Below, one piece after another: positions 8,511 to 46,277 of a stretch of 64,000 bases of DNA (position 1 is its first letter; each line of letters starts with the position of its first letter). A program made the position numbers and the translations under genes. The stretch lies in assembly GCF_009914755.1 (NCBI RefSeq), contig NC_060925.1; one strand, written 5' to 3'. The notes below the pieces were generated by a model. The model saw only the letters and a program-made list of their open reading frames with translations, searched no databases and had not been told where the DNA came from. Source of the stretch: the human T2T-CHM13v2.0 reference genome, Homo sapiens.

Positions 8511-8554
<44 letters not shown>
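8511..8554. repeat. (TA)n microsatellite
   Basis: Pure TA run. Confidence 0.95.
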
Positions 8555-8558
<4 letters not shown>

Positions 8559-16703: not shown

Positions 16704-17856
<1,153 letters not shown>

Positions 17857-18069
17857 CATTTGCTCATTTTTTAATTGTTCATTTTTTGTAGTTGAACAAC
17901 AACAAAGAAAGTTGTTACTATATTTTAATATATTCTTTATATATTTTGGATAGTAATTATTTACCAAAATATACAATTTACAAATATTTTCTCCTATCCT
18001 GTGGGCTGCCTTTTTTTTTTTCTGTTAATAACATTCTTTGATGCACAAAAGTTGTAATTAATTAATTAC

Positions 18070-29431: not shown

Positions 29432-29808
<377 letters not shown>

Positions 29809-29841: not shown

Positions 29842-30110
29842 GGCCAGCTGGTGGCTCAAGCCTGTAATCCAGCACTTTGGGAGGCTGAGGCAGGTGGATC
29901 ACTTGAGTTCAGGAGTTCGAGACCAGCCTGGCCAACATGGTGAAACCCCATCTCTACTAAAAATTAAAAAAAATTAGCCGGGCGTGGTGGCATGCGCCTA
30001 TAATCCCAGCTACTAGGGAGGCTGAGGCAGGAGAATCGCTTGAACCCATGAGGTGGAGGAGCCAAGATCATATCACTGCACTCCAGCCCAGGCAACAGAA
30101 CAAGACTCTG

Positions 30111-30155
<45 letters not shown>
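29842..30155 (+). mobile_element. AluS with a long pure A tail
   Basis: Dimer; ~40-nt A run. Confidence 0.88.
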
Positions 30156-30157
<2 letters not shown>

Positions 30158-30854
30158 AAATACATTGGGAAATTTCAAATACAGTCCAATTTCTGAGTTA
30201 GCAATGTGAAGATCTGACAAGGCTGGGCTGGCATTCCCTCTTGGGAAGAATATCCTGGAATGAGTAGTGGCTGCCCCGCCAGAGAGAGCATGAGCTTTCT
30301 GCTATTCCACTTGGGGTTTTTTACTCATTTATGCTGCATGCTAACTCCTGTAAGCATTTACATTTGCAACCTTGGTTCTGGGGTAAGTATTTGCATTTGT
30401 AACCTTTGTCCTGAAATTGTCTAAACTTGGAGTCAGACAGCCTAAACATCTATCAGGTTCCTCCTTTTATTAGCTATGTGGCCTTGGTGACAACCTATGG
30501 TCACTTAACCTATGAGAGTCTGTGTCCAATCCTGTAAAATAATGTGGATAAAATGTTCTCTAACAGGCAAGATGAAAATGTGTGTGAAAATACCTTGTAA
30601 GCAATAAATTGCTGTTCATACAGAAAGCATGATAAGTAACACTTGTTCCAATCCTGTTATTTAATGTGTGCTGCATGTTTTATTGATGATAACATTATTT
30701 TTTCATTTATTTCAGCTCTTTACTATTTTAATCAGAATTCTGAGGGAACTAGTTTAAAAGTTATTTGATTTGAAAAATAAGTAATATATTTGCATAGTTC
30801 AAAAACTAAAAACGTATAGAAGGAAGGTTATTCCCTCAATCTTCCTTTATCTTG

Positions 30855-31714
30855 GAAGTTACAAATTGTAGTAGTTACATTTGTAACTTACTACATATGT
30901 AGTAGAAGTTACATATGTAACTTCTACTTCTGTAGTAGAAGTTACATATGTAACTTACTACTTCTGTAGTAGAAAGTTACATATGTAACTTACTACTTCT
31001 GTAGTAGAAAGTTACATATGTAACTTACTACTTCTGTAGTAGAAAGTTACATATGTAACTTACTACTTCTGTAGTAGAAAGTTACATATGTAACTTACTA
31101 CTTCTGTAGTAGAAAGTTACATATGTAACTTACTACTTCTGTAGTAGAAAGTTACATATGTAACTTACTACTTCTGTAGTAGAAAGTTACATATGTAACT
31201 TACTACTTCTGTAGTAGAAAGTTACATATGTAACTTACTACTTCTGTAGTAGAAAGTTACATATGTAACTTACTACTTCTGTAGTAGAAAGTTACATATG
31301 TAACTTACTACTTCTGTAGTAGAAAGTTACATATGTAACTTACTACTTCTGTAGTAGAAAGTTACATATGTAACTTACTACTTCTGTAGTAGAAAGTTAC
31401 ATATGTAACTTACTACTTCTGTAGTAGAAAGTTACATATGTAACTTACTACTTCTGTAGTAGAAAGTTACATATGTAACTTACTACTTCTGTAGTAGAAA
31501 GTTACATATGTAACTTACTACTTCTGTAGTAGAAAGTTACATATGTAACTTACTACTTCTGTAGTAGAAAGTTACATATGTAACTTACTACTTCTGTAGT
31601 AGTAAGTTACATATGTAACTTACTACTTCTGTAGTAGAAGTTACATATGTAACTACTACTATGACATGTAAGTACTACTACCTATGTAGCAGAAGTTACA
31701 AATATGTAACTACT
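30855..31714. repeat. Palindromic 35-bp minisatellite (VNTR)
   Basis: Unit GTAGTAGAAAGTTACATATGTAACTTACTACTTCT, 18 identical copies at 30966-31595, 22 GTTACATATGTAAC cores in total, degenerate ends. Confidence 0.97.
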
Positions 31715-31756
31715 GTTTTTTTTGTATCTTTCCAGAATTTTAAAGTGCATATTCTG

Positions 31757-32424
<668 letters not shown>

Positions 32425-32649
32425 GCGGGAATGATTTTTAATATAAAACTTTTTAAAACTTTACTTTTGAAAATAATTTCTGCATTACTGAAAGCAATGT
32501 TGCTGTTATTATTGTCATTATTTTAGGAGCTGAAAACCACTCATGATTATTCAGCTGGGTTACAATACTGTTACTTGCCAGGCTACGTTCTTTACCTTTT
32601 CTTTCTGCCATGCAAAATATCTAACTCACCAGCATTAACTGTGCTCATC

Positions 32650-32937
32650 TTTCATCTTTTCTCTTTCTCTTTCTTTCTTTCTTTCTTTTTCTTTCTTTCC
32701 TTCTTCCTCCTCCTCTCTTCCTTCTCCTTCTTCTCCTTCTTCTCCTCCTCCTTCTTCCTCCTTCCTCCTCTTCTTCCTCTTCTCCTTCTTCCTCCTTTTT
32801 CTCCTTCTCCTTTTTTTTGGACAGGATCTCACTATTTGCCCAGGAGACTGGAGTGCACTGGCTATCCACAGGAACAATCATAGTTCACTACAGCCTCCCA
32901 AGAAGCTGGGACTACAAGCGCATGCTGCCACGCCCAG
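32650..32937 (-). mobile_element. FAM-like monomer with an expanded polypyrimidine tail (32650-32818)
   Basis: TSD tgtgctcatcttt on both sides. Confidence 0.7.
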
Positions 32938-45366: not shown

Positions 45367-45678
45367 GGCTGGGTACAGTGGTTCATGCTTGTAATCCTAG
45401 CACTTTGGGAGGCCGAGGCAGGAGGATGGCATGAGGCCAGGAGTTTGAGACCATCCTGGACAACATAGCAAGACCCCATCTCTACAATAAATTAAAAAAA
45501 TTACCCGAGGTTTAGTAGCCTCGTCTACTCATGAGGCTGAGGTGGGAGGATTGCTTGGAGGATTGCTTGAGCCTAGGATTTCGAGATTGCATTGAACTAT
45601 GATTGTGCCACTGCACTTTAGCCTGGGTGACAGAGCAAGAGAGACACTGTTTTTTTTTTTTAAAAAAAAAAAAAAAAA
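45367..45678 (+). mobile_element. AluJ-like flanked by ~90-100 bp direct repeats
   Basis: Diverged dimer. Confidence 0.85.
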
Positions 45679-46277
45679 GGAGAGGCCATTCTAATACTGA
45701 GAATGATTCTGAGTTGTTTTCACACGCTGGTTCTTCCCATCTTGTAATAAGCAGAGACATCTATAAATAATGATAATACTTGGTATTATAAACCCTTAAG
45801 TGCCAGTCATTTTTCTAAGTATTTTACATGTGATGTATTTTTCAACCACAATTATTGTCCCATTTTATAAATTAGGAAATTAAGGCACAGAGAGATTTGC
45901 TGGAGATATGATGGCTAAATCAGGATCAATTATTACTTGAACTGGTCCTGTTCGATCATATAGGTTAGAACTTTTGTTTATCCAGAAATATTATGGTTAG
46001 TGTTTATATTCTCATTTGTAAAATAAAGCACATAATTCTTTATCTGGAATGTATGGATGTTAGAATAATTTGAATTACATTCAAACAAAGTTGATGTAAG
46101 TTACTTCTTAGGAATCATTAAGTTAACTTGTTCCCTAAGAAATACATTTTTGTTTGAGATCATCTTAAAATATGTATTCACAGCTCACATTTATTTTTTA
46201 GAAAATATACACTAAATATTTTGAAGCTGTGATTTACTTTAAAGATTATGTTTGTACTTTTTTTGACAATGGAAAGA

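What the first reader, a model, noticed from the sequence alone, without database searches (positions are those of the whole stretch)
30855..31714. Doubly palindromic 35-bp minisatellite: an almost fully self-complementary array ~8 kb upstream of ZMYM4
Seen: 18 identical copies (30966-31595) of GTAGTAGAAAGTTACATATGTAACTTACTACTTCT; 20 CATATG cores are spaced exactly 35 bp apart (30945-31610); 29% GC, no CpG. Each unit has two dyad axes: a perfect 18-bp palindrome AAGTTACATATGTAACTT, and a junction hairpin TACTAC-TTCT-GTAGTA. The array is therefore close to its own reverse complement at every scale. One variant unit gives a perfect 30-bp palindrome (31598-31627). Inference: zero divergence between copies implies recent expansion and probable length polymorphism. 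The array could extrude serial cruciforms or one long fold-back (analogous to PATRR-type fragile palindromes), and any transcript through it would form long dsRNA.
Basis: partly seen in the sequence, partly recalled or inferred. Interest (0 to 1): 0.8.

Follow-up and report, generated by a model that had tools for sequence, protein, structure and literature searches.

The report
Hairpin-prone 35-bp AT-rich minisatellite
This is a real tandem array of a 35-base unit that is itself nearly a palindrome, lying between SFPQ and ZMYM4; it is most likely an ordinary, probably length-variable minisatellite whose hairpins favour replication slippage, not a PATRR-type breakage palindrome.

Summary
There are 18 identical 35-bp units at 30966-31595 and 20 CATATG cores at exact 35-bp spacing. 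GC is 28.7% with no CpG, and there is a perfect 30-bp palindrome at 31598-31627. The unit matches its own reverse complement at 30 of 35 positions. Arms of about 340 nt are 86-87% complementary. The single strand folds at -289 kcal/mol, against -111 +/- 5 for shuffles.

"Doubly palindromic" is not an extra feature: any tandem array of a near-palindromic unit has two dyad axes per period.

The array is unique in T2T-CHM13, sits in single-copy flanks and matches no Rfam family at gathering score.

The PATRR analogy fails on two defining features. AT content is 71%, not above 90%, and the arms are 86-87% matched, not nearly perfect. In a nearest-neighbour model, extruding the whole array costs about 15 kcal/mol per unit (278 in all). 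A perfect palindrome of the same size costs a flat 11.6.

The closest known kind is the AT-rich hairpin-forming minisatellite (FRA16B/FRA10B type), here unexpanded. Length polymorphism, ape orthologues and read support could not be tested. Interest is low to moderate.

The parts
30966..31595 (.). Core of the array: 18 identical 35-bp units, each with an extra A in both palindrome arms at mirrored positions (A.A mismatch in the fold)
30873..31660 (.). Whole 35-bp periodic array as called by TRF (22.7 copies, 98% matches, score 1513)
30855..30965 (.). Left edge: diverged modules of 31, 33 and 34 bp. Includes a 16-bp perfect palindrome across a junction with an ATAT spacer (30889-30904) and a 28-bp perfect palindrome (30901-30928)
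31596..31630 (.). Variant unit with T instead of A at unit position 8; this gives the perfect 30-bp palindrome 31598-31627
31631..31714 (.). Right edge: degenerate modules (GTAGTAGAAGTTACATATGTAAC..., GTAGCAGAAGTTACAAATATGTAAC...), followed by a T run and then an Alu-like element from about 31757 (SRP-RNA-like Rfam matches)

Best explanation
This is a locus-specific, intergenic, AT-rich minisatellite whose repeat unit is a quasi-palindrome: arm GTAGTAG(A)AAGTTAC, centre ATAT, arm GTAACTT(A)CTAC, spacer TTCT. Shown: an older array with diverged edge modules (31-34 bp) contains a block of 18 identical units that all carry the same derived 1-bp insertion, so they descend from one variant unit. 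Inferred mechanism: replication slippage, unequal sister exchange or both. When the array is single-stranded (lagging-strand template, nascent strand, resected end), looped-out units fold into hairpins. These hairpins stabilise out-of-register intermediates and so drive gain, loss and homogenisation of units. Template switching within the quasi-palindrome may explain why variants appear at mirrored places in the two arms. In relaxed duplex DNA the array should stay B-form. Only the short perfect palindromes (18, 28 and 30 bp) are cheap to extrude. No function is indicated. The likely consequences are copy-number variability and a mild obstacle to replication, as shown experimentally for a similar-sized FRA16B fragment.
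For: Array anatomy and the shared derived insertion. Strong single-strand folding: -289 kcal/mol against -111 +/- 5 for 20 shuffles, none as good. Looped-out units fold at -7.3 (1 unit), -23.3 (2), -31.5 (3) and -47.5 (4) kcal/mol. No dispersed family: the 140-bp query hits only this locus plus one 75% match on contig 7. All 21 exact 18-mers lie here. The 14-mer arm word occurs 21 times elsewhere against 26 for the reversed control. The 713-bp left flank is single copy. No Rfam family reaches its gathering score among 78 weak matches. Precedent, from passages read: a 921-bp FRA16B fragment with 14 perfect 33-bp AT-rich units gave deletions and one expansion after replication in HEK293T cells (PMC2875025). 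A review says 14 copies suffice for fork stalling in vitro (PMC9714581). Template switching between imperfect inverted repeats homogenises the arms (PMC8604942 and PMC7954356, search-listing abstracts only).
Against: Nothing here shows that the copy number actually varies; no population or ape data were reachable. Zero divergence among 18 units could also reflect a single recent amplification event rather than continuing slippage. AT content is 71%, well below the roughly 91% or more of the FRA10B/FRA16B units, so the experimental precedent may not transfer. The energies are nearest-neighbour model values (ViennaRNA DNA parameters), not measurements. The mirrored-variant series rests on only four unit states and was noticed after the fact.
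Confidence: 0.7

Rival explanations
1. PATRR-like fragile palindrome: the array extrudes a long cruciform or serial cruciforms in duplex DNA. Structure-specific nucleases then cut it, giving double-strand breaks and rearrangements.
For: Total length of about 700-860 bp is in the PATRR range. Arms of up to 340 nt have 0-5 nt between them. Each centre has a perfect AT-rich 18-bp palindrome, and there are 28- and 30-bp perfect palindromes. Modelled local extrusion costs 11.2 kcal/mol.
Against: Arms are only 86-87% complementary, with 5 mismatched positions per 35. The modelled cost of extrusion rises by 15.3 kcal/mol per unit, to 278 kcal/mol for 18 units, against 11.6 for a perfect palindrome of equal size. 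AT content is 71%, against over 90% for PATRR11/22 (PMC4940405). A 9-bp spacer plus four mismatches near the centre abolished extrusion and instability of PATRR22 (PMC1851657). Cruciform and inverted-repeat motifs were negatively correlated with the in vivo ssDNA signal in ape cell lines (PMC12637528). No paper found links this locus to breakpoints, and a fragile-site review has no mention of 1p34 or 1p35.
Confidence: 0.08
2. Regulatory E-box array: 23 CATATG (CAT-CAT) E-boxes in 860 bp act as a copy-number-dependent binding platform or sink for homodimeric bHLH factors (NEUROG2/NEUROD2, BHLHE22, OLIG2, TWIST1 class), 8 kb upstream of ZMYM4.
For: 23 of the window's 43 CATATG lie in the array. 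Passages read in PMC11602148 say that NEUROG2/NEUROD2 homodimers prefer CATATG in HT-SELEX, and that such E-boxes mark the most dynamic chromatin in neurogenesis.
Against: The motif is simply the centre of the repeated palindrome, so its multiplicity needs no selection. The hub's table lists no RefSeq functional element at the array. There is no CpG and no occupancy data. Identical copies argue for recent amplification, not for conservation.
Confidence: 0.06
3. Remnant or internal repeat of a transposable element (for example a palindromic MITE-like element) that amplified locally.
For: The palindromic modules resemble inverted termini in form. One other locus (contig 7, L018) carries GTAACTTACTAC-type repeats.
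Against: There is no dispersed family. The exact 18-mer occurs only here. The arm 14-mer is not enriched over its control, 21 against 26. The left flank is single copy. No repeat library (Dfam/RepeatMasker) was available, and the genome search skips very common words.
Confidence: 0.04
4. Assembly artefact: the copy number or perfect identity of the units is a product of consensus polishing.
For: Inverted repeats can bias long-read sequencing (title and abstract of bioRxiv 10.64898/2026.07.13.738322 in the listing only).
Against: At 0.8 kb in single-copy flanks, the array is far shorter than long reads, so spanning reads should fix its length (inference). Reads could not be inspected.
Confidence: 0.02

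Closest known systems
AT-rich minisatellites of the rare fragile sites FRA16B (33 bp) and FRA10B (~42 bp)
   Same: Unit length of 33-42 bp, AT-rich, tandem, and predicted to form hairpins. A 921-bp piece with 14 perfect units, about the size of this array, perturbs replication and is unstable (PMC2875025; PMC9714581).
   Different: Those units are about 91% AT or more and become fragile only when expanded (over 5 kb for FRA10B; up to 2000 copies for FRA16B, with 7-12 copies on normal chromosomes). This array is 71% AT and 0.8 kb in this assembly. Its unit is a cleaner palindrome, and no fragile site is reported at its band in the review searched.
PATRRs (palindromic AT-rich repeats at 11q23, 17q11, 22q11, 8q24)
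   Same: Hundreds of bp of AT-rich DNA with dyad symmetry and no long spacer.
   Different: A PATRR is a single, nearly perfect palindrome with over 90% AT, and its activity depends on length and central symmetry. Here there is a tandem repeat with a dyad axis every 17.5 bp, 86-87% arm match and 71% AT. The modelled extrusion cost grows with length instead of staying flat.
Quasi-palindromes subject to template-switch mutation
   Same: Imperfect inverted repeats whose arms become more alike by intramolecular template switching. The mirrored extra A in both arms and the T variant that restores pairing fit this pattern.
   Different: The mechanism is inferred from four unit states only. The papers were seen only as search-listing abstracts.

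Membership tests
Minisatellite / VNTR | Head-to-tail tandem array of a unit of roughly 10-100 bp | tested here: met
   TRF period 35, 22.7 copies, 98% matches; 18 exact units
Minisatellite / VNTR | Copy number varies between individuals | not testable with these tools
   Only one human assembly is held; no pangenome, read or ape data. No paper on the locus was found
AT-rich fragile-site minisatellite (FRA16B/FRA10B type) | Unit of about 33-42 bp able to form hairpins | tested here: met
   35-bp unit; unit hairpin -7.3 and two units -23.3 kcal/mol; array z -34
AT-rich fragile-site minisatellite (FRA16B/FRA10B type) | Very high AT content (about 91% for FRA10B) | tested here: not met
   71.3% AT (28.7% GC) over 30855-31714; comparator value from PMC9714581
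AT-rich fragile-site minisatellite (FRA16B/FRA10B type) | Expansion to several kb, with distamycin A or BrdU-inducible cytogenetic fragility | tested here: not met
   0.8 kb in this assembly. Other alleles and fragility itself are not testable here
PATRR | Several hundred bp in length | tested here: met
   Inverted-repeat span 30939-31637, about 700 bp
PATRR | More than 90% AT | tested here: not met
   71% AT against the criterion in PMC4940405
PATRR | Nearly perfect palindrome without spacer; central symmetry | tested here: not met
   Arms 86-87% complementary. Only 9 bp per arm are perfect at each centre before the first mismatch
PATRR | Lies at recurrent or non-recurrent translocation breakpoints | not testable with these tools
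   No breakpoint data available. Literature searches on the locus found nothing relevant
Known structured RNA or miRNA precursor (Rfam) | Score at or above the family's gathering threshold | tested here: not met
   78 matches at E<=1 in 30000-32500. Within the array all are generic hairpin matches far below gathering, the best being MIR7526 at 39 bits against 110
Dispersed repeat / transposable element | Related copies at many loci | tested here: not met
   no repeat library was available

The most novel reading that the evidence does not exclude
The array is a self-symmetrising minisatellite. Intrastrand hairpins serve as templates that copy changes from one arm to the mirrored place in the other: an extra A in both arms, then A to T restoring a pair. 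Hairpins of even numbers of units drive copy-number change in steps of two units. The resulting dosage-variable block of about 23 CATATG E-boxes would then modulate binding of homodimeric proneural bHLH factors 8 kb upstream of ZMYM4.
Probability: 0.05. Interest if true: 0.6.

Novelty: new member of a known kind. Interest (0 to 1): 0.27.

Why it matters
If the array proves length-polymorphic, it would be a clean natural substrate for studying how hairpin stability shapes minisatellite mutation. The model gives two testable predictions: a step size of two units, and correction of one arm against its mirror. It is also a candidate site of replication pausing between SFPQ and ZMYM4. As it stands, it is one more hairpin-prone AT-rich tandem repeat of a kind described since the FRA16B/FRA10B work. 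Nothing points to function or to fragility at its present size.

Tried and rejected
2. A full-text search for the 18-mer found 0 papers. ZMYM4 with VNTR found 2 papers and ZMYM4 with 'tandem repeat' found 10, none about this locus judging by titles and abstracts. Supplementary tables of VNTR catalogues were not searched and may list the array.
3. Rfam search: only sub-threshold generic hairpin matches inside the array.
4. Search for a dispersed family or transposon origin: negative. The contig 7 hit is a short direct repeat sharing a 12-14-mer, at 75% identity over 102 bp. I treat it as probably coincidental.
5. I considered sampling up to 2 Mb of the genome to ask how rare palindromic units are among minisatellites. 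I dropped this because too few arrays would be sampled to give a useful rate. The rarity of such units genome-wide therefore remains unmeasured.
7. Coding potential was not examined beyond noting that TAG and TAA occur in the unit.

Full report
OBSERVATION

The sequence is as described. The 35-mer beginning at 30966 occurs 18 times in the window, all head to tail, ending at 31595.

CATATG lies at 20 sites spaced exactly 35 bp apart from 30945 to 31610. Three more sites lie at 30894, 30912 and 31644, so 23 of the window's 43 CATATG sit in 860 bp.

GC over 30855-31714 is 28.7% and there is no CpG. The neighbouring 500-bp bins are 41-53% GC.

TRF calls 30873-31660 with period 35, 22.7 copies, 98% matches and score 1513. 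This is the strongest tandem repeat in the 64-kb window.

Perfect palindromes:
- The 18-bp palindrome is present at 21 exact sites.
- 31598-31627 is a perfect 30-bp palindrome.
- I also found a perfect 28-bp palindrome at 30901-30928.
- A 16-bp palindrome spans a unit junction at 30889-30904.

SYMMETRY

The unit equals its own reverse complement at 30 of 35 positions in the best rotation. Only 4 of 100,000 shuffles of the unit reach that value (mean 18.5). At the level of the array, arms of up to 339-340 nt are 86-87% complementary with 0 or 5 nt between them.

Two qualifications apply:
- A periodic sequence with one dyad axis per period necessarily has a second axis half a period away. The 'double' palindromy is therefore one property, not two.
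- 'Almost fully self-complementary' means five mismatched positions in every 35 (unit positions 2, 8, 27, 33 and 35, read from the folds). The longest perfect helix is 18 bp.

ANATOMY AND HISTORY

Splitting the region at the GTAGTAG landmarks gives this series:
- Edge modules of 31, 33 and 34 bp.
- 18 identical 35-bp units.
- One 35-bp variant.
- Two degenerate modules.

The 33-bp module has neither extra A and forms the 28-bp perfect palindrome. The 34-bp module has an extra A in the right arm only. The 18 core units have an extra A in both arms at mirrored places. The variant at 31596 has T opposite that A and so forms the 30-bp perfect palindrome.

All 18 core units thus share one derived insertion and descend from a single variant unit. 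Diverged edges around a homogeneous centre are the usual picture of a minisatellite.

With an assumed 0.5e-9 substitutions per bp per year (a recalled value), the chance of no substitution in 630 bp is 0.5 at 2.2 My and 0.05 at 9.5 My. 'Recent' therefore means within a few million years, or else ongoing homogenisation.

UNIQUENESS

Evidence from the window's own genome (T2T-CHM13):
- A 140-bp query of four units matches only this locus and one 75% match on contig 7.
- The exact 18-mer occurs nowhere else, and one-mismatch versions are scattered singletons.
- The arm 14-mer occurs 21 times elsewhere, against 26 for the reversed control.
- The 713-bp left flank is single copy.

The contig 7 site is a short 15/30-bp direct repeat of a GTAACTTACTAC-type word. 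There is therefore no sign of a dispersed family or a transposon origin. Two caveats apply: no repeat library was available, and the genome search skips very common words.

FOLDING

As single-stranded DNA, 30855-31714 folds at -289 kcal/mol, against -111 +/- 5 for 20 dinucleotide shuffles (z -34). As RNA it folds at -446.8 against -231 +/- 5 (z -40).

The minimum-energy structure is one long imperfect fold-back. The centroid is nearly empty across the core because many slipped registers are equivalent.

Looped-out blocks fold at -7.3 (1 unit), -23.3 (2 units), -31.5 (3 units) and -47.5 (4 units) kcal/mol. Even numbers of units fold better per unit because the 18-bp helices stay whole.

DUPLEX VERSUS CRUCIFORM

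With the same nearest-neighbour parameters, I compared the fully paired duplex with the two folded strands.
- For the real array, the cost of the switch rises by 15.3 kcal/mol per unit and reaches 278 kcal/mol for 18 units.
- For a perfect palindrome of the same length and composition it is a flat 11.6 kcal/mol.
- For the 18-, 28- and 30-bp perfect palindromes it is 11.2 kcal/mol.

I used a textbook-type estimate of superhelical energy, also computed; the constant is recalled and the four-way junction is ignored. Relaxing one unit's worth of turns yields about 13 kcal/mol at sigma -0.03 and 21.5 at -0.05. A whole-array cruciform would therefore need sustained strong negative supercoiling. Only the short perfect palindromes are cheap to extrude.

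COMPARISON WITH KNOWN SYSTEMS

PATRRs. By the passages I read, these are several hundred bp long, over 90% AT and nearly perfect palindromes without spacer (PMC4940405). A 9-bp spacer plus four mismatches near the centre abolished extrusion at physiological salt and instability in E. coli for PATRR22 (PMC1851657). The array meets the length criterion but fails on AT content and on near-perfection, so it is not a PATRR and should not behave like one.

Cruciforms in vivo. In ape cell lines, cruciform and inverted-repeat motifs were negatively correlated with permanganate/S1 ssDNA signal. The authors say it is unclear whether cruciforms fail to form or escape detection (PMC12637528).

AT-rich fragile-site minisatellites. 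This is the closest kind.
- FRA16B has a 33-bp unit, with 7-12 copies on normal chromosomes and up to 2000 on fragile ones.
- A 921-bp FRA16B fragment with 14 perfect units gave deletions and an expansion after replication in human cells (PMC2875025).
- FRA10B has a ~42-bp unit that is 91% AT, and it is fragile above 5 kb (PMC9714581).
- This array resembles an unexpanded allele of that kind but is less AT-rich.
- The review contains no mention of 1p34 or 1p35.

Rfam. Nothing reaches a gathering score.

MOST LIKELY MECHANISM

This is a neutral, hairpin-prone minisatellite maintained and homogenised by replication slippage, unequal exchange or both. Hairpins in single-stranded intermediates stabilise misaligned states. 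Template switching within the quasi-palindrome is a plausible source of the mirrored arm variants (abstracts in the listing only). I put this at about 0.7.

The steps rank as follows:
- Shown: the anatomy, the uniqueness and the in-silico folding.
- Inferred: slippage, polymorphism and template switching.

RIVALS

- PATRR-like fragility: 0.08.
- A dosage-variable CATATG E-box platform for homodimeric bHLH factors: 0.06. The motif preference comes from passages of PMC11602148; occupancy is untested.
- Transposon remnant: 0.04.
- Assembly artefact: 0.02.

WHAT COULD NOT BE DONE

Copy-number variation in humans, ape orthologues, spanning reads, breakpoints, transcription, small RNAs and editing could not be examined. 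Supplementary VNTR catalogues were not searched, so the array may already be listed there. No paper in the searched library mentions its sequence or links a tandem repeat to ZMYM4 at this place.

VERDICT

The PATRR analogy is overstated and 'doubly palindromic' is not an independent feature. The array is a new member of a known kind, of low to moderate interest until population data show what it does.

Noticed in passing
window 30899-31630: Unit variants form a series: no extra A (28-bp perfect palindrome), extra A in the right arm only, extra A in both arms at mirrored positions (the 18 core units), then T opposite A (30-bp perfect palindrome). This looks like stepwise symmetrisation of a quasi-palindrome.
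   Followed up: partly
window 30966-31105 (folds of 1-4 units): Even numbers of looped-out units fold better per unit than odd numbers (-23.3 and -47.5 against -7.3 and -31.5 kcal/mol). This predicts copy-number changes in steps of two units.
   Followed up: no
L018 1504-1606 (G000 contig 7, about 99,272,770-99,272,870): A short 15/30-bp direct repeat built from GTAACTTACTAC-type words, next to an Alu-like sequence. It is the only other genome match to the unit, at 75% identity.
   Followed up: partly
window 32645-32811: A polypyrimidine (TCTT)n/(TCC)n tract of about 165 bp lies 0.9 kb downstream of the array, with GC skew -0.43 in its 500-bp bin. It is a triplex-type mirror-repeat candidate.
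   Followed up: no
window 30115-30155, 29515-29539, 32117-32141: Long homopolymers lie around the array: A41, T25 and T25. They are probably tails of retroposed elements; SRP-RNA-like (Alu-type) Rfam matches flank the array on the right at 31758-32422.
   Followed up: no
window 8511-8555 and 45650-45679: A (TA)n microsatellite of about 44 bp and a T12A19 run are the only other perfect palindromes of 24 bp or more in the window.
   Followed up: yes
window 30873-31660: At 788 bp the array would rank second among the masked stretches, yet it is absent from the hub's list of the longest ones. It is apparently not soft-masked in NCBI's file. This is inference only, because the sequence tool prints everything in lower case.
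   Followed up: no
window 16901-17872: A 322-bp period with 3 copies at 77% match, starting with a T run. These are tandem Alu-like elements.
   Followed up: no
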